From Hyphomicrobiales bacterium (GTDB lineage Bacteria > Pseudomonadota > Alphaproteobacteria > Rhizobiales > JACESI01), in NCBI GenBank assembly GCA_039989895.1, contig JBDXGY010000002.1:117922-181921 (forward strand): a stretch of DNA of 64,000 nt. Direction: 5' to 3'. A program made the position numbers and the translations under genes. Below, piece by piece: positions 1-16,005 of this stretch. Position 1 is the stretch's first letter. Every line of letters starts with the position of its first letter. The notes under the pieces are model-generated. The model had not been told where the DNA came from and searched no databases. It saw only the letters and a list, made by a program, of their open reading frames with translations.

Positions 1-105
1 TTGTTCGCTAATCAGGGTCAACTACAGGATAAATAATTGAGGGGAATTATCCAATTTTCTTAGTTTGGCGAGATGATAATTGCGTGCTGGATGTGTGAGA
101 TAGAG

Positions 106-2145
106 TTACGTCCAGTAGTACGGTTCAATTACACCCTCAATAACTTCGTTGCGTGCTTGTAGTCGTTTGCGATGGTCAGTTTCGTTGGCATCTTTTGTAA
201 TATCTACGAAGTTACTGTTCGACTTGGTAGATGCCGTTTCTTTATTGGATTCAAAAGTTTCACCACTATGGTTAAAGGAAAACATACCAGCAAACCCTCG
301 TCCTTGTTCAGTCTCGCCTTCCAAGCGCCATTGCCTAAGAGCGAAGGTAATCATAGCTTCTTCACGCAAGTCACATACAGTTTTTATCAAAGCAATGGAG
401 GCATTTGGAGCGATCGTGTTTTTATTAAATCTGTTTCTAGTGGCTCCAAATCTTTTATCATTGCGTTCTTGAAGTGTTTTTACAAAATCTTGAGCCTTAT
501 TTATAAGGCTTGGTAGTTTTTCATTTTGTCGAAGTAACGTTATGTCTGCGTTTTTTAATTTATGTGCTTTTTTGTCTAGTGTGTCTTTGCCGGAAGAAAT
601 ATTCAGGGCATGCGGTAGTAACATTAAGTTGCCAAGCCGCCGAATTTGTTGACTATCGCGATACGTTTTTACAGAGTGATCGTCCGCCTTTTGCGGCCAA
701 ATATGCTCTATTGATAAATAGTCATTGGTACGATCTGATTTTGCATATTTTGTCGATAGACGCCCAAAATCAAAGCTTTGGCGGTCAAGTAAGGATTCTT
801 CAAAACAAGCAAGGAAGTATCGACGCCATGGCCAAGTATAGAAATCATAATTCGCATCATCATCTAGGGTTAGTGACTTTACAATAGTCGACAATCCATC
901 TTTTTGTTCATTGGTGACAAGCTCCGTTAAATCCCCAATCAATTGTTGATCTGTTTGCTTAGTTCGAAAATAATCATAAGCAAGCGTATGAAGCCTGACA
1001 TTGTAACTGTCTGAGCGTGCAGCTCGGTCTGGTAGACCATAAAGACGAAAATTTGTTTTTTCTATTGCAGTCAAAACAGGTGCGTCTTTGTGGTCATCCT
1101 TCCGCCTAAACTGTCGCGCAAAAATCAGCGGAAGAACACCTGTGATACTCTCATGATGATTAAGAAGTGTAAGCGCTCTCAATATTGGGTTTTTTGGGTC
1201 CGTATTACTTGCATTCCGAAGATTTTGATAGGTCTGAAAGTTGGCTTCCAAAAACTTTACAAAGGTTTGGAATTCTTCATATTTGTTTTCCTCAGCTGGT
1301 AATTCACGGGCCACAATTGTAAAATCAGTCTCCCCTGCATTTCTACGACCCGGTTTAAATTGAGCTACAACAGTGGCACGTAAAACAGCGTCAGTATCAG
1401 CGTCAGTGAACTCTGCATCTCCTGCAATTTGCTGAATTTTACGCCAAATTTCATTCACATTTGGCGATTTCCATTTGTTGACTGCCCCGACATAGATCAA
1501 ATGGTTTTTAACCAAATCCATCTGGGTTAGAGGTTTGCCACGATTATTGATTGTTTCAAAAACCTTAGCGACTTCATTCTCATCTTGGAGGATGAAAAGG
1601 ATAAACTTAAAATGCTTTTCTAAGAGCGTGAGCAGGTCCTTAGCGTCTGAGGTGTTATTTAAGATCCATTTATCTATCTGCTTAACTGCATCATCATAGT
1701 TTTGTTGAGCAATGGTTTTAATATCACTACGCAATCCGTTATTTAATAGATCTGTGTATGTTTCTGCATCCATGGACTGGGGAGTGAACCGGACAGAACC
1801 AAGAGTGCTTAGGAACGTTTTTTTGCCGATTTTTCGACAAAGACAAGAATGCAATAATGTTAAAGTTGTCAGGCGCTGTTGGCCATCAACCACATAAAAA
1901 TCTTCCTGATTTTCATCGCGCATCGTGCAAATTATTGTTCCGCAGAAATGAGACGCGTTTGCATTTTCTTTCACGAGCAACGCAAGTTTGTCGATATCAG
2001 TTAATAGATCAGCTCTTTGGTCATTTTCCCAATTGTAGGGGCGCTGGTAATCGGGAATATGAAATTTTCGATTCTCACCGAATATTTCCGGAAAAGTCAC
2101 CAAAGTAGCATCTGGTAAATTATCATATGAGTTCATTACAGACAC
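106..2145 (-). CDS. GmrSD-family (type IV restriction-like) endonuclease: N-terminal DUF262/ParB-like NTPase domain plus C-terminal DUF1524 His-Me finger nuclease domain
   Basis: 679-aa ORF. DUF262 hallmarks: IPDYQRPYNWE, VVDGQQRLTTL, FETINNRGKPLTQMDLVKN. DUF1524-type motifs: SIEHIWPQ ... LGNLMLLPHALNISSGK. Purine-rich gaggtg lies just upstream of the ATG. Confidence 0.8.
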   Translation of the reverse strand: MSVMNSYDNLPDATLVTFPEIFGENRKFHIPDYQRPYNWENDQRADLLTDIDKLALLVKENANASHFCGTIICTMRDENQEDFYVVDGQQRLTTLTLLHSCLCRKIGKKTFLSTLGSVRFTPQSMDAETYTDLLNNGLRSDIKTIAQQNYDDAVKQIDKWILNNTSDAKDLLTLLEKHFKFILFILQDENEVAKVFETINNRGKPLTQMDLVKNHLIYVGAVNKWKSPNVNEIWRKIQQIAGDAEFTDADTDAVLRATVVAQFKPGRRNAGETDFTIVARELPAEENKYEEFQTFVKFLEANFQTYQNLRNASNTDPKNPILRALTLLNHHESITGVLPLIFARQFRRKDDHKDAPVLTAIEKTNFRLYGLPDRAARSDSYNVRLHTLAYDYFRTKQTDQQLIGDLTELVTNEQKDGLSTIVKSLTLDDDANYDFYTWPWRRYFLACFEESLLDRQSFDFGRLSTKYAKSDRTNDYLSIEHIWPQKADDHSVKTYRDSQQIRRLGNLMLLPHALNISSGKDTLDKKAHKLKNADITLLRQNEKLPSLINKAQDFVKTLQERNDKRFGATRNRFNKNTIAPNASIALIKTVCDLREEAMITFALRQWRLEGETEQGRGFAGMFSFNHSGETFESNKETASTKSNSNFVDITKDANETDHRKRLQARNEVIEGVIEPYYWT

Positions 2146-2472
2146 CTCAATTTCTTTAAGATACTAGTCTAATTTACTTTTGTTATAGGAATGCCGTTAT
2201 CGTAAGCATGAGGCAAGCGCATTTACGGTAACAATGAAATTATGTGCTCATTATTTCTACTCCCACCTATTAGTTGCAATGAATGAAATCTCAAAATCAC
2301 TAAATTGGTCACGCCTCTCGCCCTACAAAAGACAAAGCAAAACAAGCACCCGTTGCGATATTGAAATTTAATGAGCTAATAGTAAACACTTCAAGCATGG
2401 TCTTGGTATCTAGAAGAACCCCTATGAAATTGATAGGCTGAACTCCAAATCACAACCAAACACCGGAAATAC

Positions 2473-4143
2473 ATGGCACGAATTTACCCTTCCAACGCTC
2501 TAGATGGCTGGCCTGCTTCGCGCCCAGCTATGCCCCATGGTCAAATTGCTGAACTGGAGACACTGGTTTTCCTTCGAGACAGTCTGCCCGCTCATTTTGT
2601 TGTTTTTCACAGCGTGCATTGGAATTTGCGACTGGGCAAAAGTTTGCATGCTAGAGAAACTGATTTTATCGTGGTCAATTCCAACGGCCGCTGTTTATTG
2701 ATTGAACAAAAAATGGGACAATTAGTTGAGCGCGGCGGTGAGCTTTACAAAGAATATTACGGTGGCAATGTCAAAGATGTTGCAACACAGATTCACGATA
2801 GTCGCGATGGTATTCGCGGGCAATTTAAGAAACAAAATAAAGGCCATGACATACGCCTTGATTACCTGCTCTATTGCCCGAACCACCACATTCAATCGTT
2901 GAATGCATCAGCCATTGAACGTGACAATATCGTGGATGGGAGCAGACGCAGTCAGCTCGCTAAAACGATCACGGATAGATTAGGTGGCGCAGCTGATCAG
3001 TCAAACGATCTTGGCAAACAGGCTATACGTTTTTTCAAACAAACCATGACCATGTCACCCGATGTCTCATCGATGCAGGCACGACATGAAAATCGTTTTG
3101 TTGAACTTTCAGGTCAAGCGCTAGAAATTGTCGAATCTATTGAAATGACGCCGTTGCGGCTAAAGGTCAACGGAACGGCTGGGTGCGGCAAAACCCAAAT
3201 GGCTATGCGTTTTTTAGAACGCGCTCTTGAAACGGGTAAAAAGCCTTTATTTGTTTGTTACAATCATTCTTTGAAAGACCACATCGCAACGTTGATGGAT
3301 GAGCGGATTTCCATGAAGACAATGCATGGCTTAATCCATGAATTTTGCAGCCGTGATGATGTTGATATTGATTATAAGCCTGGCAACAAAACTAATGAAG
3401 AATGGCGTATGCTGATTGATGAAGTGGTTCTCAATACCAATGATGAACATGAAGAGTTTGACTTCCTAATTGTAGATGAAGGACAAGATCTTGGTATTGA
3501 CGGGTTCGAGTTCATCAATCTTTTTATAAAAGACGATGCCGATATCGTTTGGCTGGAAGATCTAGATCAAAATCTAGGGCAATCTTTTGGTAAGCCCTTT
3601 CTAAGGGATGATTTTGTGAGCATCAGCCTTACAAGAAACTATCGAAGTCCTGTTTCTGTTTTTCAACTCATTGATCGGGTTTTCCCTGAGCGCACGACCC
3701 TTGGCAATTCCTTGCCCGGCTTGGGTTATGGCTTGCACGGCTACAAAAAAGCCGAAGATCAAATCTCGATGGTTGAAGCCATCATCAAGAAACACACTGC
3801 ATCTGGCGCTAAACCGCAAGATATCGCAATCGTCAGTTTAAAGGGCATGGGCAGTAGTAGTTTCAAGGATATAGAAGAACTTGGCAAACACACCATTCGG
3901 CGCTTTAACGGACAATATGCTGAGGGTGAACAGGTCTACACACAAGGGGATATTACCTTTGAAACCATTCGAAGGTTCAAAGGCCAGCAGGCTCCGTTTG
4001 TTATCCTAGTTGATGTGGAACCTGATATTGACCGCTCATGGTCAATGAATGCCCTATTTTGCGGTATGACGCGAGCGACTATGCATCTGGATGTTGTCGG
4101 CAATGAAAAGAATGACTTTAACAAGGAAAATTTTAAGCTGTGA
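2473..4143 (+). CDS. NERD-domain nuclease fused to an SF1 (UvrD/RecD-like) helicase
   Basis: 556-aa ORF. N-terminal NERD-like block (ETDFIVVNSNGRCLLIEQK). Walker A GTAGCGKTQ, motif II LIVDEGQD, TRNYRS, and C-terminal RRFKGQQAPFVILVD and GMTRAT (motif VI-like). Confidence 0.75.
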   Translation: MARIYPSNALDGWPASRPAMPHGQIAELETLVFLRDSLPAHFVVFHSVHWNLRLGKSLHARETDFIVVNSNGRCLLIEQKMGQLVERGGELYKEYYGGNVKDVATQIHDSRDGIRGQFKKQNKGHDIRLDYLLYCPNHHIQSLNASAIERDNIVDGSRRSQLAKTITDRLGGAADQSNDLGKQAIRFFKQTMTMSPDVSSMQARHENRFVELSGQALEIVESIEMTPLRLKVNGTAGCGKTQMAMRFLERALETGKKPLFVCYNHSLKDHIATLMDERISMKTMHGLIHEFCSRDDVDIDYKPGNKTNEEWRMLIDEVVLNTNDEHEEFDFLIVDEGQDLGIDGFEFINLFIKDDADIVWLEDLDQNLGQSFGKPFLRDDFVSISLTRNYRSPVSVFQLIDRVFPERTTLGNSLPGLGYGLHGYKKAEDQISMVEAIIKKHTASGAKPQDIAIVSLKGMGSSSFKDIEELGKHTIRRFNGQYAEGEQVYTQGDITFETIRRFKGQQAPFVILVDVEPDIDRSWSMNALFCGMTRATMHLDVVGNEKNDFNKENFKL

Positions 4144-4303
4144 TGAAAATCTACCTATTTTAAATTTGGCAATGATCTATGTAGGCCGAATCCACAAAAT
4201 TTGGGTCTGGGCATTACATAAAAATTACCATAAACAATAAATGGCATGAGTAATAAAGTGGCGAATAATCAGTTAGTCCGTCCTCAGAGGGTTATGGATG
4301 GAT

Positions 4304-4350
4304 TGCAGCTTAGATTAAGCGAGAGTTTGGCTCATTTGGTTTTATGCCAT
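4304..4350. mobile_element. Solo terminal remnant resembling the orfB-proximal end of the neighbouring IS3-family element
   Basis: tgcagcttagattaagcgagagtttggctcatttggttttatgcc aligns with the IS3 end at 5927-5975 (tgcctaaactaagagagagttcggctcatcttgttggtttcattatgc). The core aagNgagagttYggctcat matches 17/19. Same orientation as the intact copy. Confidence 0.45.
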
Positions 4351-5786
4351 CAAGCTGCATTATTGGTCTGCTCAATAAATCTAAGGATGCAAACCATGGC
4401 CAGTGTATCAAGCTTGCAATATTCTAATAACGCGTTCCGTAATGCCTTGCGTTTTGTTTGATCAGTTTCGTCTAACATCTTTTTCCAAGCATCCATCGCC
4501 GAAGTGCCGTCAGCAACATCCATACCTTCATACGATAATTCAGGAACCACAATTGGAAGAACTTTTTTAATGGAGGTTGATCCGCCAAAACTACTATCGA
4601 CATAGCCCGTTTTGAAGACATCCATTAGGTCTACAGTTCGATCGATTAAGTTGAATAAAAACTCTGCCTTGTCAGGATAGAGAGCAGCCATTTTCTTATT
4701 TTGACTGTTTTCAAAACCTTTGTTCCAAACAATGACGGAACCTGTGGGTCCGATTACATTTTGCATTTTCTCGATCAGTGCTAATGGGAGTTCTGGTTGG
4801 TTTGCCAAAAACTCATGATGTTCGATTACGCCATCCTCTTGCTGAACATGAAGAGAAAATTGGAAGGGTAACTGAGCTTGGGGACTAGTACCATCAACAA
4901 TGGGAATTGCTGATGCATAGGTCTCGTAATCAAGGTGATAGAGCGGGTATGTGAGCACGCCTATGAAGTTTTCAATATCTGCTAAGTCTACATATGGTTC
5001 ACCAGCTAAATGGGACTTCAAAACGGGGCGCTGTAAGCTTGTGACTTCGTCAATAGATATATCATTCAAACTGAACCGCCCTTCAGCAACAAATGCCTCC
5101 CGCTTTTTTGCTGACAACCGGGGCAAATTGTAAATTGATGGTTTGGGGATTTGTGGATTGAAATAGTCAAAGCTGTCGCAATGATGTGACTTGCTGAGAT
5201 GCAAACAGGTACATCCAGTTTCATCGATCTTATCTAATTTTAAAAGTGATAATGCGTTGGCAATTTCATTTTCAGTTTCTGGTATTAGCGCTTTAACACG
5301 AACGGTAACGTCAGCAAACGTTAAGAACTCTGCTGGTTCGATCTTACCACGCCTTACATATTTACCGTTCAAATGGACGATGAGAATATTTCGTACATTC
5401 TTGCCTGTTTGTTTGGCTGCAATAGTTTGGAAGGCGGCGTCTTTTAGTTGATTGTGCGGATTATTATCTTTGACGCTTGTTGAAGATTTGATTTCGAATA
5501 GATCAATTGATCCATCTTCATTCTGTAAAACCATATCAGCTTTTGCATAAAGACCACCGTCAGTTTCAAATTCTTGCTGGAATGAGTAATGAGAAGTATT
5601 TGAAAAACTAGATATCAATCGCTGAACATAGGCTTCAACGAGATATCCTTCAGCAGCAAGCTTCTTGGCGTATTCAGAGAACTCACCATGCGGATATTGA
5701 TCTGATTTATTCAACATCAGCCAAAGCGATTTAGAGCAATTTAAATATTGCATAAAATGCGTTTTACTGATGGTTTCGTTGTTCAT
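4350..5786 (-). CDS. DUF2779-family protein: Cas4-like PD-(D/E)xK nuclease half plus DEDDy-type exonuclease-like half
   Basis: 478-aa ORF. The N-terminus SKTHFMQYLNCSKSLWL is typical of DUF2779 proteins. DLFEIKSS nuclease core. Four Cys (C17 ... CTC ... HHC). C-terminal motifs HLDYET, WNKGFE and YCKLD. Confidence 0.7.
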   Translation of the reverse strand: MNNETISKTHFMQYLNCSKSLWLMLNKSDQYPHGEFSEYAKKLAAEGYLVEAYVQRLISSFSNTSHYSFQQEFETDGGLYAKADMVLQNEDGSIDLFEIKSSTSVKDNNPHNQLKDAAFQTIAAKQTGKNVRNILIVHLNGKYVRRGKIEPAEFLTFADVTVRVKALIPETENEIANALSLLKLDKIDETGCTCLHLSKSHHCDSFDYFNPQIPKPSIYNLPRLSAKKREAFVAEGRFSLNDISIDEVTSLQRPVLKSHLAGEPYVDLADIENFIGVLTYPLYHLDYETYASAIPIVDGTSPQAQLPFQFSLHVQQEDGVIEHHEFLANQPELPLALIEKMQNVIGPTGSVIVWNKGFENSQNKKMAALYPDKAEFLFNLIDRTVDLMDVFKTGYVDSSFGGSTSIKKVLPIVVPELSYEGMDVADGTSAMDAWKKMLDETDQTKRKALRNALLEYCKLDTLAMVCILRFIEQTNNAA

Positions 5787-5968
5787 TCGAAATCTGAAAA
5801 CCGTGTCATCTTTTTCTAAGGGAAAATTTTTGTTAGTTAATTATAGATCATTATATTAACATTTAAAAATAACTCTAAATTTTACAAGCCTCACTGTCCG
5901 TCGTCAGGGTTTTTGGAACCAAGGTCTGCCTAAACTAAGAGAGAGTTCGGCTCATCTTGTTGGTTTCA

Positions 5969-6949
5969 TTATGCGGCATATTGTCTGTGATGCAAGCGCC
6001 GCTGTTCGATCGTTTTCCGTTTGATCCTTTCGCGTTGTTGTAGAATGTCTTTGTCCCGTCCGAAGTAGACGTCGGCGGGTGTGACGTTGTTCAGGCTCTC
6101 GTGATAACGCTGATGGTTGTAATGGTCGATGAAGGCTTCGATCTGGGCTTCGAGATCGCCGGGCAGGAAGTAATTTTCTAGCAGTATGCGGTTCTTCAAG
6201 GTTTGGTGCCACCGTTCGATTTTGCCTTGGGTTTGAGGATGATACGGCGCACCTCGAGAGTGTTTCATGCCTTTGTCCTGCAGCCATTCAGCTAATTCCC
6301 CCGAGACGTAGCTAGAACCGTTGTCACTGAGGAGGCGAGGTTTGTGAACGACGTGGACTTGATCGCATCCTGATGCATCTAAAGCCAAGTCCAATGTGTC
6401 CGTCACGTCTTGGGTTCTCATGTTTGTGCAGAGTTTCCACGAGATGATGTAGCGGCTGTAGTCATCCAAGATCGTGCTGAGATAAAACCAACCCCAGCCA
6501 AGCACTTTGAGATAGGTGAAGTCCGTCTGCCAAAGTTGATTGATAGCTGTGGTCTTGTCTTTGAACTCGCTGGCGGCTTTTATCACGATGAAGGCTGGGC
6601 TGGTGATCAGATCATGGGCCTTAAGTATCCGATACACAGAAGCTTCTGATACAAAATAGCGCTCTCAGTCTGTGAATGTCACCGCAAGCTCCCGTGGTGA
6701 TAACTCTGCTTCCTTTAATGCAAGTGTGACGACCTTCGCACGCACCTCGTCTGGGATACGGTTCCACACGTGTTTTGGTTTGGGGGATTGATCTTGCAAT
6801 CCAGCCTCACCACGTTGCAGATACCGATCATACCAACGGTAGAATGTGGTGCGGGGAATGCCCAGCTTGGCCAGTGTCTGACGCGTTGACAGATGTGACC
6901 CTTCGACCAGATCGATGATCTCCAGCTTTTCAGATGCAGCGTACCTCAT
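5969..6949 (-). pseudogene. IS3-family transposase OrfB (HTH_21-like plus rve/DDE integrase core) split by an in-frame TGA
   Basis: The two track ORFs (6665..6949 and 5969..6637) are in the same frame. The minus-strand reading is ...TFTD TGA ERYFVSEASVYRILKAHD..., with the stop at 6665-6667. DDE-core motifs: WQTDFTY, LLSDNGSSY, PYHPQTQGKIERWH. Confidence 0.8.
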
Positions 6950-7320
6950 TCGTGGTCGCCCCCATCCCCTGTCATGCTTTTTTTGAGAAGGCGCAATTCC
7001 AGCGTCTGCTCGGCCACAACTTCCTTCAGATCATGCGCTTCACGGCGCAAGTCTTTGACCTCGTCCGTCGTGGCTGCACGCACTGTATCACCGGCAAGCC
7101 GCCGTTTGCCAGCTTCCATGAAATCCTTGGACCATTTGTAGTAGATGCCCTGAGAGATGCCCTCACGTCGACAAAGCTCAGCTATGCTGTCTTCGCCACG
7201 CAACCCGTCCAAAACAAACCTGATCTTCTCTTCGGACGAATAATGCTTGCGCGTCGCACGTTTGATGTCTTTGACTATCTTTTCGCCAGGGCTTTTACGT
7301 GTTCCAGTTGTTTGTCTCAT
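6946..7320 (-). CDS. IS3-family transposase OrfA (HTH plus leucine-zipper-like region)
   Basis: MRQTTGTRKSPGEK...SIAELCRREGISQGIYYKWSKDF...LELRLLKK. The ATG at 7320 is preceded by GAGGAG. The upstream part of the track ORF (to 7368) runs into the IR and is probably not translated. Confidence 0.85.
   Translation of the reverse strand: MRQTTGTRKSPGEKIVKDIKRATRKHYSSEEKIRFVLDGLRGEDSIAELCRREGISQGIYYKWSKDFMEAGKRRLAGDTVRAATTDEVKDLRREAHDLKEVVAEQTLELRLLKKSMTGDGGDHE
6978..6984 (-). promoter_or_regulatory. A7 slippery run for programmed -1 frameshifting (or transcriptional slippage) joining OrfA to OrfB
   Basis: The minus strand reads CTC AAA AAA AGC near the orfA 3' end. The -1 frame from here is open (KKHDRGWGRPR) and runs into the orfB ATG at 6949. 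The orfA stop and orfB start overlap as ATGA. Confidence 0.7.
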
Positions 7321-7414
7321 CTTCCACTCCTCAGTGGTTACGATGAGCCAAGAACACTCTCTTAGCAATTTACCCTATTTGGACCCATAGGCGCTGACGT
7401 CAGACAATTTAAAT

Positions 7415-7422
7415 TAATTTAT
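7415..7422. repeat. Target-site duplication (left copy) of the IS1595-family element
   Basis: TAATTTAT immediately outside IRL, identical to 9550-9557. Confidence 0.8.
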
Positions 7423-7509
7423 GGGGGCTATATATTTAGCTAGCCATTAGCCTTTTATGTTGAAATTGGGCGGCATTGAGCCGCCCATGACAGGGAACAG
7501 AAGGATAGG

Positions 7510-8550
7510 TCAGCTCCTATCTATTAATGTTGGCGATAATCTTTCTATCGCGAGCTGGGCCACTGACGGTGGAATTTCTTTCTTACCTTTCAAATAGTTT
7601 TTGAACTTCCCGCCATCTAAATAAGTTTCCTGAAGCCAACGGCGATATTCACCCAATGCATCAAGTGGATAACAGTTTGCTATCTGAGGGTTGGATCTAG
7701 CTTGCGGGTGGTCTTTTGGATAGCGGTGGGGAAATTTTTCTCTATCACCGAACCTAGTGTTGAAATCATTAGCGTCCCAATGCTTCGCCCAATGTTGACC
7801 TATAGAAATATCAGGCACCATTTTTTCGCCTATATCAGCTCCCGCCATGATTAGTTCATAAAGTACAGTATGAGCCTCATTGAAAATACTAAAATAACCA
7901 TTCGGAGCGCTTTTATGGTTTAGCTCGATACGTTCGTGCCACTTACGAAGCGGCTCTTCTATAGAACCCGTCTGGTCATATCCAACTTGACTGTAAATTA
8001 ACTCTCGAAGTTTGGAACCCGCGAGAAGTCGGAAATTTTTACGAGCTTCAGGTCTTATATTGTTGCCAGCATCAAGTGCATAATATTCAAGTATTGCGAG
8101 AGAAGCTTCTGCGGGGTAACAAAAATGAGTAATCCCTTTGTGGGCCACCTCTATATGCGGGAGATCTAGTTCAACTCCGCCCTCACTCAAAATACCCTTA
8201 ATGGTTGTTATCCGAGGCTTCTGGACTTCGTCAGTCCATTGGCTACTAATTGTGCCTATGTGCGCGTTTTGAACGCCACAAAGAGCGGCAAGGCCTCGTT
8301 GATTGAGGTAGGGAGTACCATCTGAGAGCACGCCCATTCCGATGCCCTCTACATCTCTTTCTTTGTCAATACCTAAGTCTAAAACACCTTGTTCTTTGGT
8401 GATTTCCTTTTTGCCTCGAACTCTAGCTAGTCTATTGATTTTTCTATCTAAAATAGTGATTTCCTTTCCTTCTTCTTTGGGGGCGATGGACCCAACTACA
8501 TCATCAAATGTTCCGTCGATTGGCGCAATCATGCCCTTTTTCTTATCCAT
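7510..8550 (-). CDS. Hypothetical protein, passenger gene of the IS1595-family element (function unknown)
   Basis: 346-aa ORF. Its ATG overlaps the transposase stop (ATGGATAA, 8-nt overlap). A GC-rich stem-loop (gggcggc attga gccgccc, 7468-7486) follows it before IRL. No catalytic motif recognised. Confidence 0.6.
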   Translation of the reverse strand: MDKKKGMIAPIDGTFDDVVGSIAPKEEGKEITILDRKINRLARVRGKKEITKEQGVLDLGIDKERDVEGIGMGVLSDGTPYLNQRGLAALCGVQNAHIGTISSQWTDEVQKPRITTIKGILSEGGVELDLPHIEVAHKGITHFCYPAEASLAILEYYALDAGNNIRPEARKNFRLLAGSKLRELIYSQVGYDQTGSIEEPLRKWHERIELNHKSAPNGYFSIFNEAHTVLYELIMAGADIGEKMVPDISIGQHWAKHWDANDFNTRFGDREKFPHRYPKDHPQARSNPQIANCYPLDALGEYRRWLQETYLDGGKFKNYLKGKKEIPPSVAQLAIERLSPTLIDRS

Positions 8551-9466
8551 TTATTAGTTCCTTATATGTGAGGCGCTGGCCTCCCATTCGAGCAATGGTT
8601 GCGCCAATAAAATCCATTGTTCCAAAATTCGAAGTGTTGTGGCGGAATGAAAATTCATTCACGTAGCGGTGTAAGTGCTTTGCACTCATAAAGTGATAGA
8701 TGCCGATGTAACCGCGCTTAAGCAGTGACCAGAAGCTTTCGATACCGTTTGTATGCGCCATTTCTTTTACATACTCACCAACAGAATGATTGATGGTGAT
8801 GTGCTTATAGCCACGGTTTGAAAGGCCACGGTAAGCTGGAAAGTTATCAGTCACAACCGTTGCGCCCGATGGTGCGTGTTGCATCACAAAGCCCTGCAAA
8901 GCCGATGCTTTGGTATTATTGATTGGCAATGCATAGACGTTGCCAGTTTGATCGCGCATACCAACAACCGCCGTTTTACCAACAGCACCACGGCCCGCTC
9001 TCAATTTATTAGATGAATGCTTATTAGCTTCTTTCCCGCCAATGTATGTTTCATCCACTTGGACGTGACCATCCATATCGTTGTCAGAACCGCTCTTCAT
9101 CCAAGTTTCACGGATGCGCTGAGCGAGGAACCAAGCTGATTTTTGAGTAATACCAAGTTCGCGGGCCATTTGAGTGCTAGGGATACCCTTGCGAGCGCTT
9201 GTAAGCATGAAAATGGCTAGCAACCACTTTTGAAGTGGAAGGCGGCTTTCAGCCAATACAGTGCCAGTACGAACGCTAAAATGCTTGCGGCACGATTTGC
9301 AGCGATAAGCCATAGGCTTGTGGTCTTTACACTCTGATACATCTGTAGAACCGCAATGACCGCAAACAGCCTCACCACCCCAACGTTTACCTTCAAAGTA
9401 ATGACGCGCTGATTCCTCATTGGGGAATTTTTGGAAAAACTCAAACTTAGATAGGGTGTCAGTCAT
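8543..9466 (-). CDS. IS1595-family (ISXO2-like) DDE transposase with N-terminal zinc-ribbon
   Basis: 307-aa ORF with CGHCGS...CKSCRKHFSVRTGT zinc ribbon, VQVDETYIGGKE, VVTDNFPAYRGL and HTNGIESFWSLLKRG motifs. Confidence 0.9.
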   Translation of the reverse strand: MTDTLSKFEFFQKFPNEESARHYFEGKRWGGEAVCGHCGSTDVSECKDHKPMAYRCKSCRKHFSVRTGTVLAESRLPLQKWLLAIFMLTSARKGIPSTQMARELGITQKSAWFLAQRIRETWMKSGSDNDMDGHVQVDETYIGGKEANKHSSNKLRAGRGAVGKTAVVGMRDQTGNVYALPINNTKASALQGFVMQHAPSGATVVTDNFPAYRGLSNRGYKHITINHSVGEYVKEMAHTNGIESFWSLLKRGYIGIYHFMSAKHLHRYVNEFSFRHNTSNFGTMDFIGATIARMGGQRLTYKELING

Positions 9467-9549
9467 TAGTATTGCTCCTTACAACACTAATGTAAGATAA
9501 CTAGCCAAACATTTCAAGTTATTTTTGGCTAGTTAAGTATGTATCCCCC

Positions 9550-9557
9550 TAATTTAT
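9550..9557. repeat. Target-site duplication (right copy) of the IS1595-family element
   Basis: TAATTTAT immediately outside IRR, identical to 7415-7422. 8 bp is the duplication size expected for IS1595-family elements. Confidence 0.8.
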
Positions 9558-10102
9558 TATATTCCAATAATGTCACCAAGCACACAATGGAGCGTCTTTC
9601 GGTATTATGTTTCAAATAATTAGTATTTTAAACTGGTTGGTTGTGTCTGCTAATATTAGGTTTGATGGCTTAGTAACTTGTTTTCATGGTAATTTGTTGA
9701 AAACCAAATTTGTTGGTCTTTTTGTTGGTTCTTTCCAAAATCGAATTAAGAAAATTACATAAATTCAAAGCACTATGAAAAACTTTCGATTCCGGCGGGG
9801 GCCATGATTTTCGGAGAGATAGCCGAAAAATTGATCCAGTGAATCAATTTTAGAAAATCATGCCAAGCAGCAAAGCTACGCGGCAGTTGCTGCGTGTTTA
9901 ATAGTGAGATTTTATGCGAAAATGGTATTCTATGATCAATACATTTCAGCGCGGACCTCTTCGTTAATCTCCTCAGCCATCCTCAGCCATGAAATTAAAT
10001 CTTTATCCAAGAAACCTGACTCATCATATGACAGAACCCGCTTCAAATGGTTATTGAGTATTAACGCGTCCTCACTTCTGAAAAGTGATGCCGACGTCCA
10101 TT

Positions 10103-10702
10103 TTACAGGTTTTTCTGCAAGATATATTTGACCATCTTCGTGAATTTAGCAACGCAAGACATGCCGTCATCACCCCATTTCCCAAAATTTCGACGCACGT
10201 AGGAATTTGAACCTTCTGGTGTCCATGAAACTTCATGAGGGCAGTTTTCTTTTAACCAAGCCGCAAAAAGATCGATCGCTCTCTTAAAGTCTTCCTCATG
10301 TGCTTGATCATCCGCTCTTTTTGTAGATCTTTCGTTAGCACTTACCTGTAGTCGAATAAGTTCAGTATTGGCTTTCATATCCTCCGATTGAGCCTTTATC
10401 AGTTCAATCTCTTGAATGTATATTTCTTTAGTCGCACGCAATTCATCACGTTGTGCCTGAAGCTCCTTAGATTGAATAAGAACGGCACCCGCGAGCTAAA
10501 TAAAAGCTAGGGGCGCAAAAGCACCAGCAAGATAGTCACCTAATTCATTGGCGTCTAATTCAGCTAGGAAGCGATCCAAAAATGGTTCATGCCCGTTCGG
10601 CACTATCTTGAACGTGAAATAACCAAGTGCGATCAACCATCCGATGGTCAACAACACGAGAACTATAAATGTTACTGAGCTACTTCTCTTTTCTTCGTTC
10701 AA
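10103..10702 (-). pseudogene. Two-TM plus coiled-coil hypothetical protein interrupted by an in-frame TAG
   Basis: Track ORFs 10496..10702 and 10103..10441 share one frame. The read-through is ...LGDYLAGAFAPLAFI TAG LAGAVLIQSKELQAQRDELRATKE..., so the stop (10496-10498) sits inside a predicted hydrophobic helix. Confidence 0.6.
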
Positions 10703-10735
10703 TGAGTGTCCAGTTTCATAGGTAGCGAGATGGCT

Positions 10736-11341
10736 TTAATCAAAAAGCCGCTCTAATTCTATCGTTGCATGTACCCAGACGGGCTCTTGCCCTTTTTCGG
10801 CATGGCTTTTGATGTCTTCACGGAATTCTTGGACAAATTCTTGAGTATAACCATACGACCGCTTCAATAAGCGTTTCGCTTTTTTCTCATCAATCAAATC
10901 TGAGCGGGTCATTTCGTATAATCTTGTCCAGAAGTATAGAAAGACGGTGAGTGCTTCATGTTCGGTATATGCACTACTTGAATGGGTTTCATGAAAATGT
11001 GCTTTGGTCGGTTCAAGATTTAATTCAGCTGGACTCACGAATGTCTTTAAAAGCTGCGTAGGGTCTGTCTCATCGATCAGCCAGCCGCGCCTGATAGCCT
11101 TCCTGTACTCTTCGCGTTTTTTCTTGGGTAAGTAACGCCATTTCAGCGCAATTCTTGTTATCGGTAATACGACCCTTCGATAATTATCGGCTGAATAGTA
11201 TTCGTTGTATAAATCAGCAACGCGCGAATGGCGATCAATTCTTCTTCTTATGAAGGCCACCACAAAGGAATTTAATAATGAAAATATCCCGAGAATGATT
11301 GTGATAGAACCAATCAATAAAGTCGGTTGATCAAATGACAT
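10736..11341 (-). CDS. Hypothetical single-pass membrane protein
   Basis: 201-aa ORF with an N-terminal hydrophobic helix (LLIGSITIILGIFSLLNSFVVAFI) followed by RRR and a soluble helical domain. Lies 33 nt upstream of the next gene on the same strand. Confidence 0.55.
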   Translation of the reverse strand: MSFDQPTLLIGSITIILGIFSLLNSFVVAFIRRRIDRHSRVADLYNEYYSADNYRRVVLPITRIALKWRYLPKKKREEYRKAIRRGWLIDETDPTQLLKTFVSPAELNLEPTKAHFHETHSSSAYTEHEALTVFLYFWTRLYEMTRSDLIDEKKAKRLLKRSYGYTQEFVQEFREDIKSHAEKGQEPVWVHATIELERLFD

Positions 11342-11710
11342 CGCGTCCCCCTAATTAATAGTTTAATTCGTAACATTGGCTATGCGGGAGATCAATAAAG
11401 CCTATCACCACGCGATTTATTAGAGAAGAAGGGTGCAAACAGTTTTAGAAAATCCCGAAAGGCGCAGCGAAGTTCTTCCTGATTTCGCCATTGAGACTCA
11501 TTTAATAGGTGGCGAAAAAAAATCCTAAAGACGAAAAAATGAAGCTCATTTTAAACTTGCTTGTTCGACCTCAATTTTCCGAAAGCCAACATTCGATATG
11601 GAGTTGCAATACTCCTCTCGAATGACAATAACGCAGACTTAATTATACCTGAAGTCAGCAAGCCCGTTATGGCTGATGTACTATCGTCGTTTAATAGCAT
11701 GAGCAGACTA

Positions 11711-12904
11711 TTAGCACTTGCCTATTTTCTTACGATTTATACGATCGCCATATTCATCAAACTGAAAGCGAAACTTCGTTCCGCGATAGCATCCATCAGC
11801 AAAGAAGCTGACACCGCGTACGCCTCTTTTTTCAAGGCGTTTTTTAATGTCTGCAACAGGATGTGACCGACATAGTCCGCGATCAACATCATTCAAAACA
11901 TCACCGTATTGAGAAAGCGATAGTTCATGCTGACGACCATTCAGGCAAGCATCTACATTAAATTTATAACTGGCGGTTTTTCCTGCCCTCACAATGCGAA
12001 TGCGTTTAAAACCTTCTTTGTGCAGATGTTTTGTGACATCTTTTTCAGACAAGGATACAGCACAAGGGCCTAAAGGATTGCGCCCTTTCAATTCGCCAAA
12101 CCGGTTTAAAACAACCTCGAAGCGTCGATTGTTTTGGCAGGCTTCCGCGCGATACCCGGGCAGCTTCCGGTCAAAGACATAAATACCATTATATCCGCTA
12201 TTTTTGAGATGTGCTTCGATATGCGCCGGATTGAGGGGCTGTGCGCATTGACCAATCTTCCTTTGTCGCTTTATCTCGCCAAAACGAGTAAGAAGAAGTT
12301 CGACCCGCTGGCCATTCTTGCAAGCGTGCGCCGCATACCAAGGCAATTGCCGATCTTTGAATATGACCCTGTTGTAGCCTGCCTTATTCAAAAGTGGACG
12401 AATATCACTTGGTTCAAAAATGCGATCGCATTGTCCAAACCCACGCCGTCGTTCAACTTCACCAAATTGATTGACGACCAATCGAACACGTTCACCTTTC
12501 AAGCAACCAACGGCAACATAATATCCATTCTGCTCATCAAGGGAAAAACGCTCTAAACCTAATTTAGATAACCGTTGCCCAATCGCTTTGCCTGACAAAG
12601 TTGAACGACATTTACCAATCGGTCGTGCTGATTTTAAATTTCCGCGCGCACCAAGCTTAACATCAAAACGTTTGCCACTCTTACAAGCGCGCGCTTTTAT
12701 AGACTTAAAACCCTGATGATAAATCTCAATCTGATCATATCCATTAGCAACAAGACTACGTTTTGCAGCCCCTGAAGAAGCGCCAATCTGAAATTCAACT
12801 TTTTGTGCCGATACTTCTTGCGGTGAAAATGTAAAGCCTGCCAAACCAAGGGCAGTAACGACCACTGGCAGCACATGTCCTCGGATTTTTTTTGAAAAAA
12901 GCAT
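11711..12904 (-). CDS. Secreted protein composed of six tandem ~60-aa PepSY-like repeats, each with a conserved Cys pair
   Basis: Likely start is the ATG at 12904 (GAGAGGG upstream), followed by the signal peptide MLFSKKIRGHVLPVVVTALGLAGFTFSPQEVSAQ. The repeats follow the pattern GY..i......y.a.AC..G.r.e..l..fGe......iG.C, six times. Confidence 0.7.
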   Translation of the reverse strand: MLFSKKIRGHVLPVVVTALGLAGFTFSPQEVSAQKVEFQIGASSGAAKRSLVANGYDQIEIYHQGFKSIKARACKSGKRFDVKLGARGNLKSARPIGKCRSTLSGKAIGQRLSKLGLERFSLDEQNGYYVAVGCLKGERVRLVVNQFGEVERRRGFGQCDRIFEPSDIRPLLNKAGYNRVIFKDRQLPWYAAHACKNGQRVELLLTRFGEIKRQRKIGQCAQPLNPAHIEAHLKNSGYNGIYVFDRKLPGYRAEACQNNRRFEVVLNRFGELKGRNPLGPCAVSLSEKDVTKHLHKEGFKRIRIVRAGKTASYKFNVDACLNGRQHELSLSQYGDVLNDVDRGLCRSHPVADIKKRLEKRGVRGVSFFADGCYRGTKFRFQFDEYGDRINRKKIGKC

Positions 12905-13113
12905 AATACCCTCTCTGAAACATAGAATACTAAGTTCCGATGGTGTCGATAAAATGTCAACAACACTCAGATGCGTGTCAGGTGGCAATGAGGTGAAAAT
13001 TATTTCTTCATCCGATTGCAAGCTTAGAAAAAACGCTGTGTTTCGCCGAGCGCATGCATGTTACATTTATCTAAAATCGTGTTACTGTGCTATAAAAATA
13101 GAAGGATTTTTCG

Positions 13114-14124: not shown

Positions 14125-14150
14125 GACGACGTCTAATCGGGGGCATATCT

Positions 14151-15940: not shown

Positions 15941-15962
15941 AGCAGCTTCTAAGCTGCACGGA

Positions 15963-15986
15963 CGGTGTTGATTGAGGTCAACACCG
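15963..15986. terminator. Stem-loop between convergent genes (DsrE-like and acnB)
   Basis: cggtgttga ttgagg tcaacaccg: a 9-bp perfect stem. Confidence 0.5.
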
Positions 15987-16005
15987 CCTAGAAACTTTCA
16001 ACGGC

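What the first reader, a model, noticed from the sequence alone, without database searches (positions are those of the whole stretch)
106..5786. Three adjacent nuclease/helicase genes next to IS elements: candidate anti-phage defence island
Seen in sequence:
- Three large ORFs are not co-oriented. There is a divergent 327-bp gap at 2146-2472 and a convergent 206-bp gap at 4144-4349.
- Together they encode a ParB-like NTPase plus His-Me finger nuclease (DUF262/DUF1524), a NERD nuclease plus SF1 helicase, and a Cas4-like nuclease plus DEDDy-like exonuclease.
- Directly to the right lie an IS3 copy, an IS1595 copy and decayed membrane-protein genes.
- The whole stretch is visibly AT-richer than the core genes.

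Established knowledge: GmrSD/BrxU/SspE-type DUF262-DUF1524 enzymes are anti-phage effectors. Co-localisation of nuclease/helicase genes with known defence genes and mobile elements is the signature used to discover new defence systems.

Inference: the NERD-helicase and DUF2779 genes are uncharacterised defence candidates. They may act alone or together with the GmrSD-like gene.
Basis: partly seen in the sequence, partly recalled or inferred. Interest (0 to 1): 0.75.

Follow-up and report, generated by a model that had tools for sequence, protein, structure and literature searches.

The report
Defence island of independent nuclease genes
The three genes are real and lie in a variable stretch of at least 13 kb that looks like an anti-phage defence island, but they appear to be separate single-gene modules rather than one system, and two of them (a NERD-helicase and a DUF2779 double nuclease) are still untested candidates.

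Summary
Observation confirmed. Three intact ORFs lie at the stated coordinates: a GmrSD-type DUF262/DUF1524 enzyme, a NERD + SF1 helicase, and a Cas4-like + DEDDy DUF2779 protein. Catalytic motifs are conserved in all three. GC is 40.6% against 46.8% for the rest of the window.

The IS3 orfB carries a premature stop.

A close relative (94% nt identity) is collinear only from position 12980 rightwards, so at least 13 kb including the block is accessory.

The GmrSD gene best matches HEC-06, an experimentally validated family.

The NERD-helicase gene recurs at 96.5% nt identity, exactly gene-for-gene, in a Hyphomicrobiales MAG. There it sits between BREX plus a different GmrSD gene and a DrmD-like helicase.

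Close DUF2779 relatives sit beside Type ISP restriction, CBASS and Type I R-M. More distant ones form operon-like pairs with GmrSD-type genes, HerA, Type III Res or SNF2 helicases. However, some CPR genomes keep DUF2779 next to rpoB-rpoC-dnaG-rpoD, and it is reported quasi-essential in JCVI-syn3.0.

The trio is not a conserved unit. I read it as a defence island of independent modules. Defence roles for the two candidates rest on gene neighbourhoods only.

The parts
106..2145 (-). GmrSD-type (DUF262 + DUF1524) Type IV restriction-like enzyme, 679 aa, closest to PADLOC HEC-06
   Evidence: Pfam GmrSD_N 8.6e-38 and GmrSD_C 8.9e-9. PADLOC HEC-06 1e-42, SspE 8e-27, mREase_IV 1.3e-11. DGQQR at residues 87-91 and E480-H481 (EHIWP); no RLFDS motif. 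PDB sequence matches to a DUF262 protein (9jfl, 1.2e-13) and SspE.
2146..2472 (.). Divergent intergenic region between the GmrSD-type gene and the NERD-helicase gene. It presumably holds both promoters.
   Evidence: Promoter-like matches here are no more frequent than in shuffled sequence. The region has no similarity to the sequence upstream of the 96.5%-identical gene in L001.
2473..4143 (+). NERD (PD-(D/E)XK) nuclease fused to an SF1 UvrD-like helicase, 556 aa. The mobile one-gene cassette spans 2470-4146.
   Evidence: Pfam. PADLOC RTasNERD-Hel 3.3e-24 full-length and C3a187 NERD+UvrD 6.8e-11. Invariant E62/D64, E78-Q-K80, G234-K240, D335-E-x-Q338 and R391. AF2 pLDDT 88.6 with Foldseek hits to SLFN11 (7.8e-17), UvrD, Upf1 and Dna2. 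96.5% nt identity to L001 9998-11674, with junctions at TAC|ATG and TGA|TGA.
4144..4349 (.). Convergent intergenic gap
   Evidence: No terminator-like site was found inside it.
4350..5786 (-). DUF2779 protein, 478 aa: N-terminal Cas4-like Fe-S PD-(D/E)XK nuclease plus C-terminal DEDDy 3'-5' exonuclease
   Evidence: Pfam DUF2779 6.4e-37. Invariant D84, E98-x-K100, C17/C192/C194/C203, D286-x-E288, D386 and Y456-x3-D460. AF2 pLDDT 92.7. Foldseek hits to Cas4 (4ic1, 7mi4, 8d3l), EXO5, AddB/AdnA, 3'hExo, ERI2 and ExoI.
5892..7411 (-). IS3-family element. orfA is 6946-7368. orfB is 5969-6949 and is interrupted by an in-frame stop at 6665-6667.
   Evidence: Pfam HTH_Tnp_1, HTH_28/32 and rve. 81-83% nt identity to IS3 copies on Rhodobacterales plasmids over 5892-7409. 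The translation shows the stop at codon 95.
7510..8550 (-). bstA: abortive-infection defence protein, 346-aa ORF, apparently intact
   Evidence: PADLOC BstA 3.1e-109, residues 51-338 against model positions 3-287 of 292. The family is described in PMC8585504.
8543..9466 (-). IS1595-family transposase, 307 aa. Its stop overlaps the annotated bstA start by 8 bp.
   Evidence: Pfam DDE_Tnp_IS1595 2e-43 and Zn_ribbon_IS1595 1.9e-9. No inverted repeats enclosing both the transposase and bstA were found.
10103..11341 (-). Two small genes of unknown family with hydrophobic N-termini. 10736-11341 is intact (201 aa). 10103-10702 is split by one in-frame stop.
   Evidence: No Pfam or PADLOC hits. Hydropathy maxima of 2.4 at the N-termini, and the two pieces share a frame. 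One stop codon in the joined translation.
11711..12979 (-). Last gene of the variable region: predicted secreted repeat protein of unknown family. The probable true start is near 12904.
   Evidence: No Pfam, PADLOC or NCBIfam hits. The signal-like hydrophobic segment is at residues 48-66 of the longest ORF.
12980..12980 (.). Right-hand synteny breakpoint of the accessory region. To the right the window is collinear with close relative L181; to the left it is not.
   Evidence: blastn: window 12980-17931 matches L181 2276-7228 at 93.9%. L181 1-2275 matches nothing in the window. L181 gene content is given.

Best explanation
Window 1-12979 is the right-hand part of an accessory genomic island in a marine alphaproteobacterium. 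The organism is inferred from best hits only. The island is a collection of independent anti-phage modules that were acquired separately.

(1) ORF1 (106-2145). A HEC-06-like GmrSD Type IV restriction enzyme. By analogy with the family, the DUF262 NTPase domain (DGQQR motif) senses or powers, and the DUF1524 His-Me nuclease (E480-H481) cuts modified or otherwise non-self DNA.

(2) ORF2 (2473-4143). A self-contained nuclease-helicase. I infer that the SF1 motor loads on phage DNA or a replication intermediate and feeds it to the N-terminal NERD PD-(D/E)XK nuclease, in the manner of single-protein defences such as Nhi and Hna.

(3) ORF3 (4350-5786). A motor-less double exonuclease: a Cas4-like Fe-S 5'-3' nuclease joined to a DEDDy 3'-5' exonuclease. 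I infer that it degrades both strands from free DNA ends, for example phage genome ends or fragments left by neighbouring restriction enzymes. It would work alone or be recruited by whichever defence motor lies nearby.

(4) bstA (7510-8550). A fourth, abortive-infection module.

Shown: gene integrity, domain and fold assignments, conserved catalytic residues, absence of the region from a close relative, single-gene mobility of ORF2, and the neighbourhoods of homologues. Inferred: every biochemical activity and any effect on phages.
For: Accessory status.
- L181 (93.9% nt identity) is collinear only from 12980 onward.
- The block's GC is 40.6%, below every equal-sized window in the rest of the window.
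- Two IS elements are present.

Known defence genes in the region.
- HEC-06-type GmrSD with both motifs that are essential in HEC-06.
- Full-length BstA.

ORF2.
- 59 nt differences against L001 give only 9 aa differences, which indicates purifying selection.
- The same gene sits in L001 between BREX (BrxA/B/C, PglX) with a 24%-identical GmrSD gene on one side and a DrmD-like SNF2 helicase (PADLOC 9.6e-207) with integrases on the other.
- All six contexts of relatives with at least 43% identity are mobile-element or defence neighbourhoods. They include BrxR/WYL regulators directly upstream in L183 and in the P0013 locus.
- A related PADLOC model covers the full length.

ORF3.
- Relatives at 62-72% identity lie next to Type ISP R-M with AAA_13 and an integrase (L084), CBASS (L085), Type I R-M (L087), and Type I R-M with CHAT (L006).
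- In Roseibium the gene stays at the same locus while the flanking defence cargo differs between species.
- Elsewhere 45 of 72 upstream neighbours are co-directional and less than 60 bp away.
- Those neighbours include GmrSD-type genes (L036, L045, L054, L056; also L170 and L171), HerA (about 1e-175), Type III Res (3e-180) and DrmD-like SNF2 helicases.

Independence of the modules.
- The three genes are not co-oriented.
- 0 of 80 DUF2779 loci have a NERD-helicase, and 1 of 83 NERD-helicase loci has a GmrSD gene.
Against: - No phenotype was tested.
- The left border of the island is outside the window, so its full content is unknown. A BREX system, as in L001, cannot be excluded.
- DUF2779 also occurs in conserved core synteny (rpoB-rpoC-dnaG-rpoD ... 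DsbA ... TypA) in 8-10 CPR genomes.
- DUF2779 dominates in reduced Patescibacteria genomes and is reported quasi-essential in JCVI-syn3.0 (PMC13621843). All of this fits a housekeeping repair role.
- More distant NERD-helicase homologues (about 30-35% identity) often sit among metabolic or regulatory genes such as DUF6701, BetR, GST, histidine kinases and LeuA.
- Neighbour counts come from crude ORF calling on the 80 best-matching loci. There was no matched background control, and PADLOC helicase models are promiscuous.
- DUF2779 and the NERD-helicase lie within 5 kb of each other in 3 other loci (L094, L111 and the P0013 locus), so full independence is not proven.
Confidence: 0.65

Rival explanations
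1. DUF2779 is primarily a housekeeping DNA-end-processing or recombination-repair nuclease, a helicase-independent substitute for RecBCD/AddAB/RecJ. On this view it sits next to defence genes only because its locus borders an integration hotspot.
For: - Core synteny with rpoB-rpoC-dnaG-rpoD in 8-10 CPR genomes.
- Abundance in reduced Patescibacteria genomes.
- Reported quasi-essential in JCVI-syn3.0 (PMC13621843).
- In Roseibium it diverges about like the neighbouring RNR gene (77.6% against 80.6% nt) and keeps its position while the flanking cargo changes.
- Fold matches include the repair nucleases EXO5, AddB and AdnA.
Against: - In the window it lies inside the segment that is missing at this site in a close relative.
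- It has tight operon-like pairing with GmrSD-type genes, HerA, Type III Res and SNF2 genes in unrelated phyla.
- Four of four contexts from the window protein's own clade carry known defence systems.
- The two roles are not mutually exclusive.
Confidence: 0.3
2. The three genes, or at least the NERD-helicase and DUF2779, form one cooperative system. It would be an AddAB-like machine in which the SF1 helicase-nuclease supplies the motor for the Cas4-like/DEDDy nuclease, possibly triggered by GmrSD cleavage.
For: - The genes are physically adjacent.
- The component set resembles AddA (SF1 helicase plus PD-(D/E)XK nuclease) together with AddB (Fe-S Cas4-like nuclease).
- DUF2779 lies within 3-5 kb of a NERD-helicase in L111, L094 and the P0013 locus.
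- DUF2779 is usually the distal gene behind a motor protein elsewhere.
- GmrSD-then-DUF2779 pairs recur.
Against: - The genes are on opposite strands with separate promoter regions.
- The NERD-helicase recurs at 96.5% nt identity without DUF2779 in L001, and its homology ends exactly at the ORF.
- 0 of 80 DUF2779 loci have a NERD-helicase.
- Only 1 of 83 NERD-helicase loci has a GmrSD gene.
Confidence: 0.1
3. The NERD-helicase is not a defence gene. It would be a repair or replication-restart helicase, or a maintenance function of the mobile element that carries it.
For: - Distant homologues (about 30-35% identity) sit in syntenic chromosomal contexts with DUF6701, BetR-type regulators, GST and histidine kinases.
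- No characterised defence protein matches it closely: PADLOC Nhi only 0.0019 and GajB partial.
- The family is small, with 163 representatives at E <= 1e-30.
Against: - All six contexts of relatives with at least 43% identity are defence or mobile-element islands.
- BrxR/WYL defence regulators lie directly upstream in two of these, and a further two WYL neighbours appear in the bulk scan.
- The full-length match is to the UG34 RT-associated NERD-helicase model (PMC9226505).
- Only 2 distant hits occur on 2.9 million viral contigs.
Confidence: 0.15

Closest known systems
HEC-06 / GmrSD / BrxU / SspE family (DUF262-DUF1524 Type IV restriction-like enzymes)
   Same: ORF1 has both domains in one polypeptide. 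It has the DGQQR NTPase motif and the E-H nuclease motif (EHIWP here, EHICP in HEC-06), both shown to be essential in HEC-06. Its best PADLOC model is HEC-06.
   Different: - The HMM match falls in two stretches and is strongest at the N-terminus.
- There is a C-terminal tail of about 100 aa that is not in the models.
- The BrxU RLFDS motif is absent.
- Whether BREX or Ssp genes lie to the left cannot be seen.
- Substrate specificity is unknown.
Single-protein nuclease-helicase defences (Nhi, Hna); UG34 RT-associated NERD-helicase; CRISPR type III-associated NERD+UvrD (C3a187)
   Same: ORF2 fuses a nuclease to a helicase in one protein and occurs in defence islands. It gives a full-length PADLOC match to RTasNERD-Hel (3.3e-24) and a partial match to C3a187 (PMC9226505).
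   Different: - There is no reverse transcriptase or CRISPR locus nearby.
- The Nhi model matches only at the Walker A region (E = 0.0019).
- Hna has a different helicase superfamily and domain order (from my own knowledge of the literature, not tested here).
- No trigger is known.
Schlafen group III proteins (SLFN11, SLFN14)
   Same: These are the best full-length structural matches to ORF2 (E = 7.8e-17; about 590 aligned columns). Both have an N-terminal nuclease followed by an SF1 helicase.
   Different: Sequence identity is 13-15% and TM-score about 0.42, with high rmsd. The nuclease folds differ (Schlafen core versus NERD PD-(D/E)XK). This is an architectural resemblance, not membership.
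Cas4 / AddB / EXO5 Fe-S PD-(D/E)XK nucleases, and DEDDh/y exonucleases (MrfB, 3'hExo, ExoI)
   Same: The N-terminal half of ORF3 has the D...ExK motif, four invariant cysteines and a Cas4-like fold. The C-terminal half has DEDDy residues and an exonuclease fold. The same fusion is described for MMSYN1_0389 (PMC13621843) and in Majorek 2014 (PMC3985635).
   Different: There is no cas1/cas2 or CRISPR array. ORF3 has no helicase partner in the same polypeptide. No DUF2779 member has been characterised and none has a solved structure.
HerA-effector defence systems (Sir2-HerA, DUF4297-HerA), as named in my own knowledge of the literature
   Same: In L055 and L078 a full-length defence-type HerA (PADLOC about 1e-175) lies immediately upstream of DUF2779. 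In L036 and L045 a HerA-like gene lies downstream. That is a nuclease effector next to a HerA motor.
   Different: There is no HerA in the window. The pairing is seen in only 4-5 of about 90 loci. Whether HerA and DUF2779 interact is untested.
BstA abortive-infection proteins
   Same: The ORF at 7510-8550 matches the BstA model over its full length.
   Different: BstA was described as prophage-encoded with an internal aba self-immunity element (PMC8585504). Here it is flanked by IS elements with no phage genes in view, and aba was not examined.

Membership tests
GmrSD-like (HEC-06 type) | DUF262 (GmrSD_N) domain with the DGQQR NTPase motif | tested here: met
   Pfam 8.6e-38. DGQQR at residues 87-91.
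GmrSD-like (HEC-06 type) | DUF1524 (GmrSD_C) His-Me/HNH nuclease with the acidic-His motif | tested here: met
   Pfam 8.9e-9, above the cut-off. E480-H481 in SIEHIWP. Motif as given in bioRxiv 10.1101/2024.01.29.577857.
GmrSD-like (HEC-06 type) | Best match to the HEC-06 models rather than BrxU, SspE or classical GmrSD | tested here: met
   PADLOC HEC-06 1e-42, against SspE 8e-27 and mREase_IV 1.3e-11. The match is in two stretches, so the fit is moderate.
GmrSD-like (HEC-06 type) | Restriction of modified or foreign DNA; phage resistance | not testable with these tools
   Needs plaque and cleavage assays.
BrxU (BREX-associated GmrSD) | RLFDS nucleotide-binding motif and adjacency to BREX | tested here: inconclusive
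   RLFDS is absent. The left flank, where BREX could lie, is outside the window. In L001 a different GmrSD gene (24% identity) is BREX-adjacent.
Nhi | Homology to the Nhi model over the nuclease and helicase domains | tested here: not met
   PADLOC Nhi E = 0.0019, with no significant stretch and only the region around Walker A.
UG34 RT-associated NERD-helicase (PADLOC RTasNERD-Hel) | Full-length homology to the model | tested here: met
   3.3e-24, residues 34-542 against model positions 25-510 of 519.
UG34 RT-associated NERD-helicase (PADLOC RTasNERD-Hel) | Adjacent UG/Abi reverse transcriptase | tested here: not met
   All ORFs of 60 aa or more in 1-13 kb are accounted for and none is an RT. 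None was seen in L001-L003 or L183 either.
Gabija (GajB) | UvrD-type GajB together with an OLD/TOPRIM GajA | tested here: not met
   Only partial GajB matches, 1.9e-8 on residues 326-491. There is no GajA-like gene.
Active NERD-SF1 helicase | PD-(D/E)XK catalytic residues and the SF1 motifs (Walker A, DExQ, arginine fingers) conserved | tested here: met
   E62, D64, E78, K80, G234-K240, D335-E336-Q338, R391 and R501 are invariant in 35 sequences and present in the window protein.
DUF2779 (PF11074) | Pfam model above the gathering score | tested here: met
   127.1 bits against a cut-off of 23.3.
Cas4 (CRISPR adaptation) | D...ExK nuclease motif and four Fe-S cysteines | tested here: met
   D84, E98 and K100, plus C17, C192, C194 and C203, are invariant. 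Foldseek matches 4ic1, 7mi4 and 8d3l.
Cas4 (CRISPR adaptation) | Association with cas1/cas2 and a CRISPR array | tested here: not met
   No cas genes among the ORFs in 1-13 kb. No repeat array.
DEDDy 3'-5' exonuclease | Four acidic residues plus Y-x3-D | tested here: met
   D286, E288, D386, Y456 and D460 are invariant. Fold matches to 3'hExo, ERI2 and ExoI.
BstA | Full-length match to the BstA model | tested here: met
   3.1e-109, model positions 3-287 of 292.
BstA | Prophage location and an internal aba anti-BstA element | not tested
   Only IS elements flank it. aba was not searched for.
Defence island (operational definition) | Variably present between close relatives | tested here: met
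   L181 is collinear only from 12980. This rests on one relative, and the left border was not seen.
Defence island (operational definition) | Statistical enrichment of homologues near known defence genes | tested here: inconclusive
   Qualitative counts only. There was no background control.

The most novel reading that the evidence does not exclude
DUF2779 is a portable 'DNA-end eraser': a motor-less double exonuclease with 5'-3' Cas4-like and 3'-5' DEDDy activities. Many different defence motors and restriction enzymes (GmrSD-type, HerA, Type III Res, DrmD-like SNF2, Type I/ISP R-M) would recruit it to finish off cleaved invader DNA. The same enzyme would double as the main end-resection nuclease in reduced genomes (CPR, Mycoplasma), which would explain its quasi-essentiality there. 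In this window it would act downstream of the adjacent GmrSD-type enzyme, and the NERD-helicase cassette would be a later insertion between the two.
Probability: 0.25. Interest if true: 0.75.

Novelty: new variant of a known kind. Interest (0 to 1): 0.55.

Why it matters
DUF2779 is a very widespread protein: more than 3,900 clusters were hit and 582 relatives in one truncated genome scan. It has no characterised member, and it is one of the unexplained quasi-essential genes of the minimal cell JCVI-syn3.0.

If it proves to be a defence-associated DNA-end exonuclease, that would do three things:
- assign a function to a large family;
- define new HerA-, Res-, SNF2- or GmrSD-linked system variants;
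- link housekeeping end-processing with immunity.

The NERD-helicase is a compact family that can be tested as a single gene. Its gene-precise exchange between two islands is a clean example of modular shuffling of defence genes. The GmrSD and BstA genes are ordinary new members of known families.

Tried and rejected
- Exact-sequence look-ups of the window's own GmrSD and DUF2779 proteins found nothing, so the left flank could not be recovered.
- Sequence-only PDB searches were uninformative. The NERD-helicase gave spurious hits to designed PPR repeat proteins, and DUF2779 gave nothing. Fold search was needed instead.
- I tested whether bstA is a passenger gene inside the IS1595 element. No terminal inverted repeats enclose both genes, and the only plasmid match covers the transposase alone. 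Rejected as unsupported.
- Promoter and terminator scans of 1-6000 found no more sites than in shuffled sequence, so I drew no regulatory conclusions.
- No tRNA gene and no repeat array or CRISPR marks the island.
- The plasmid collection matched only the IS3, so there is no evidence that the block is plasmid-borne.
- The viral contig scan gave only 2 distant NERD-helicase hits and 11 DUF2779 hits. Several of the DUF2779 hits share neighbours with cellular loci, so a phage origin is not supported.
- A GmrSD-NERD-helicase partnership was suggested by L001. I rejected it as a general rule, since only 1 of 83 loci shows it.
- A 17-locus 'neighbour' cluster turned out to be antisense shadow ORFs of the helicase gene in GC-rich DNA and was discarded.

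Full report
**1.

Pfam and PADLOC confirm the domain calls:
- ORF1: GmrSD_N 8.6e-38 and GmrSD_C 8.9e-9.
- ORF2: NERD 2.3e-5, AAA_19 and UvrD_C_2.
- ORF3: DUF2779 6.4e-37 and RNase_H_2 1.2e-6, with a Cas4 model hitting the N-terminal half.

Family alignments show every catalytic residue conserved:
- ORF3: D84, E98-x-K100, four invariant Cys (17, 192, 194, 203), D286-x-E288, D386 and Y456-x3-D460.
- ORF2: E62/D64, E78-Q-K80, Walker A G234-K240 and D335-E-x-Q338.
- ORF1: DGQQR at 87-91 and E480-H481.

AlphaFold models are confident (pLDDT 92.7 and 88.6). By Foldseek, ORF3 is Cas4/EXO5/AddB-like followed by 3'hExo/ERI/ExoI-like. ORF2 is a nuclease-helicase whose best full-length matches are SLFN11 and SLFN14, then UvrD, Upf1, IGHMBP2 and Dna2.

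The block has 40.6% GC. The rest of the window averages 46.8%, and no equal-sized window there falls below 43.2%.

**2.

- The ORF at 7510-8550, between the IS3 and the IS1595 transposase, is a full-length BstA (PADLOC 3.1e-109). BstA is a validated abortive-infection family (PMC8585504).
- The IS3 orfB has a premature in-frame stop at codon 95, so that copy is probably dead.
- Of the 'decayed membrane-protein genes', one ORF of about 199 codons is indeed split by a single stop. The neighbouring 201-aa gene is intact. Neither has any family match.

**3. The region is accessory**

The first clearly core gene to the right is an SsuA-like binding protein at 13114-14124. It has a 97%-identical homologue on contig L181. 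blastn shows window 12980-17931 matching L181 2276-7228 at 93.9%. L181 1-2275, which encodes a Response_reg-EAL protein and another gene, matches nothing in the 64-kb window.

So everything from 1 to 12979 is absent at this site in a close relative. That covers the three genes, both IS copies, bstA and the small ORFs. The left border lies beyond the window. No tRNA or integrase is visible in the part we have.

**4. ORF1**

The best PADLOC model is HEC-06 (1e-42), ahead of SspE and classical Type IV models. HEC-06 is a GmrSD-like single-gene system shown to protect against phages, and mutation of DGQQR and of the E-H nuclease motif abolishes protection (bioRxiv 10.1101/2024.01.29.577857). Both motifs are present here, while the BrxU RLFDS motif is not. 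ORF1 is therefore a new member of a known, validated kind.

**5. ORF2 is a mobile one-gene module**

A 98%-identical protein (P0001) is encoded in a Hyphomicrobiales MAG. At DNA level the only similarity between the 64-kb window and the 21.7-kb locus L001 is window 2470-4146 against L001 9998-11674, at 96.5%. Identity starts three bases before the ATG and ends three bases after the stop, and it is random outside. The 59 nt differences give only 9 aa changes, so the gene is under purifying selection.

In L001 the gene lies between a BREX operon (PglX-BrxC-BrxB-BrxA) with a different GmrSD gene (24% identical to ORF1) and a DrmD-like SNF2 helicase (PADLOC 9.6e-207) with two integrases.

Other relatives with at least 43% identity sit as follows:
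- L002: between an IS30-like gene and an integrase.
- L003: near HATPase_c_3, Bro-N, Type_ISP_C and IS1595 fragments.
- L183: directly behind a BrxR-type WYL regulator, among SbcCD-like, REase-ARP, AIPR, DUF4420 and Z1 genes.
- P0013 locus: behind a WYL-WCX regulator, with a caspase, an AAA protein, SNase, RNase_T and a DUF2779 gene.

The family is small, with 163 representatives at E <= 1e-30 among 1.84 billion, and uniform in length.

The picture is weaker further out. Homologues at 30-35% identity from soil metagenomes often sit in syntenic, non-defence neighbourhoods (DUF6701, BetR, GST, histidine kinases, LeuA). Defence-type neighbours (WYL x2, T5orf172 x2, HsdR, RmuC, DruK, MkoA, IetA) are a minority.

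The closest curated model is the UG34 RT-associated NERD-helicase (3.3e-24, full-length; PMC9226505), but no RT is present. Nhi is not matched (E = 0.0019).

**6. ORF3 (DUF2779)**

The family is large and uncharacterised. Its two-nuclease architecture has been noted computationally (PMC3985635; PMC13621843).

Contexts in the window protein's own clade all contain known defence systems:
- L084: Type ISP R-M, AAA_13 and an integrase.
- L085, Roseibium aggregatum: CBASS (SMODS, E2, SAVED).
- L087, Maritalea: Type I R-M, T5orf172 and a GIY-YIG protein (for these three).
- L006, Roseibium sp. TrichSKD4: Type I R-M and CHAT.

In Roseibium the gene keeps its place about 3 kb from ribonucleotide reductase. 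Its divergence is core-like (77.6% against 80.6% nt), while the flanking cargo is swapped.

Across 80 species-representative loci, 45 of 72 upstream neighbours are co-directional and less than 60 bp away. Recurrent partners are:
- GmrSD-type genes (L036, L045, L054, L056; also IMG/VR L170 and L171).
- Defence-type HerA (L055 and L078, about 1e-175; downstream in L036 and L045).
- Type III Res (L019, 3e-180).
- DrmD/BrxHI-like SNF2 helicases (L012, L046).

Against a purely defensive role:
- 8-10 CPR genomes keep DUF2779 in rpoB-rpoC-dnaG-rpoD ... DsbA ... TypA synteny.
- The majority of the hits are from Patescibacteria.
- The Mycoplasma member is reported quasi-essential.

Full-length structural relatives also exist in giant viruses, for example CroV at TMq 0.60.

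**7. Are the three genes one system?**

The genes are not co-oriented. None of 80 DUF2779 loci has a NERD-helicase within 10 kb. One of 83 NERD-helicase loci has a GmrSD-type gene. ORF2 travels alone.

DUF2779 does lie 3-5 kb from a NERD-helicase in three other loci (L111, L094 and the P0013 locus), and directly behind GmrSD-type genes in six. Co-residence in the same hotspots is therefore real. A DUF2779-GmrSD functional link is possible, but an obligate three-gene system is not supported.

**8. Mechanism (inferred)**

- ORF1 cuts modified or non-self DNA, like other GmrSD-type enzymes.
- ORF2 translocates on invader DNA or replication intermediates and degrades them with its NERD nuclease, possibly under its own promoter in the 327-bp divergent region.
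- ORF3 degrades both strands from free ends. It would act alone or after cleavage by neighbouring restriction enzymes.
- BstA adds abortive infection.

None of these activities was or could be tested here.

**9. Limits**

- The ORF calling in fetched loci was a simple longest-ORF method with genetic code 11, although some CPR lineages use another code.
- The loci are the 80 best matches, not a random sample.
- There is no background control for neighbour counts.
- Only one close relative supports variable presence.
- The organism is inferred only from best hits (Stappiaceae, Hyphomicrobiales, Rhodobacterales).

**10. Verdict**

This is a genuine defence-island fragment made of independent modules. 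Two are new members of validated families (HEC-06-type GmrSD and BstA). Two are untested candidates. Of these, DUF2779 is the more interesting because of its breadth, its recurrent operon partners and its unexplained quasi-essentiality in a minimal cell.

Noticed in passing
window 7510-8550 (-): An intact bstA abortive-infection gene (PADLOC 3.1e-109) lies between the IS3 and the IS1595 transposase. Its annotated start overlaps the transposase stop by 8 bp. The first 50 residues of the ORF lie outside the BstA model, so the true start, and the effect of the IS insertion on expression, are unclear.
   Followed up: partly
window 2470-4146 and L001 9998-11674: The NERD-helicase gene is shared at 96.5% nt identity, with homology ending within 3 nt of the start and stop codons. 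Inside the gene, identity is mosaic: 92-95% over 3073-3522 and 99-100% over 3523-3972. No flanking repeats or attC-like sites were looked for in depth.
   Followed up: partly
window 5969-6949 (-): IS3 orfB carries a single in-frame stop at codon 95 (6665-6667). The element is 81-83% identical to IS3 copies on Rhodobacterales plasmids. It ends about 105 bp upstream of the DUF2779 start codon.
   Followed up: yes
L055 8053-11500; L078 8089-11470; L045 7773-14721; L036 7341-13688: Defence-type HerA ATPases (PADLOC about 1e-175) lie directly beside DUF2779, sometimes together with a GmrSD-type gene and a CHAT protease (L045). This may be an undescribed HerA-effector system variant.
   Followed up: partly
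L019 7293-11446; L012 5384-10312; L046 5912-11515: A Type III restriction Res subunit (3e-180) or large DrmD/BrxHI-like SNF2 helicases end within a few bases of the DUF2779 start, which looks operon-like. A homologous DrmD-like helicase also lies in L001 near the NERD-helicase.
   Followed up: partly
L030, L041, L042, L048, L050, L061, L068, L070 (CPR genomes): DUF2779 lies in conserved core synteny. rpoB, rpoC, dnaG and rpoD are upstream. DsbA, a stand-alone RNase_H_2 protein and TypA/BipA are downstream.
   Followed up: partly
L004/L085 and L006 (Roseibium): The same DUF2779 locus, about 3 kb from ribonucleotide reductase, carries different cargo in two congeners. One has CBASS with DEAD/DUF3223 and a Tle1-like gene. 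The other has Type I R-M with a CHAT protein. This is a defence hotspot with a conserved DUF2779 resident.
   Followed up: partly
L183 8992-11641 and the P0013 locus: BrxR-type WYL or WYL-WCX regulators sit directly upstream of and co-directional with NERD-helicase homologues. Two further WYL neighbours appeared in the bulk scan. The window copy has no such regulator.
   Followed up: no
window 11711-13021 (-): A 436-aa ORF (probable start near 12904) has a signal-like hydrophobic segment and visibly repetitive sequence of roughly 45-aa units ending in Cys. It has no match in Pfam, NCBIfam or PADLOC. It is the last gene of the variable region.
   Followed up: no
window 10103-10702 (-) and 10736-11341 (-): Two adjacent small genes with hydrophobic N-termini and no known family. 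The first is split by one in-frame stop. Whether they are paralogues was not determined.
   Followed up: partly
BFVD hits E3T4R0 (Cafeteria roenbergensis virus) and A0A3G4ZWN9 (Faunusvirus): Giant-virus proteins match the whole DUF2779 model (TMq 0.60-0.65), so the two-nuclease architecture also exists in eukaryotic giant viruses.
   Followed up: no
L090 3526-4506: A NERD-helicase homologue (40% identity) in a metagenomic contig lies next to an IS3 orfB that is 75% identical at protein level to the window's IS3.
   Followed up: no
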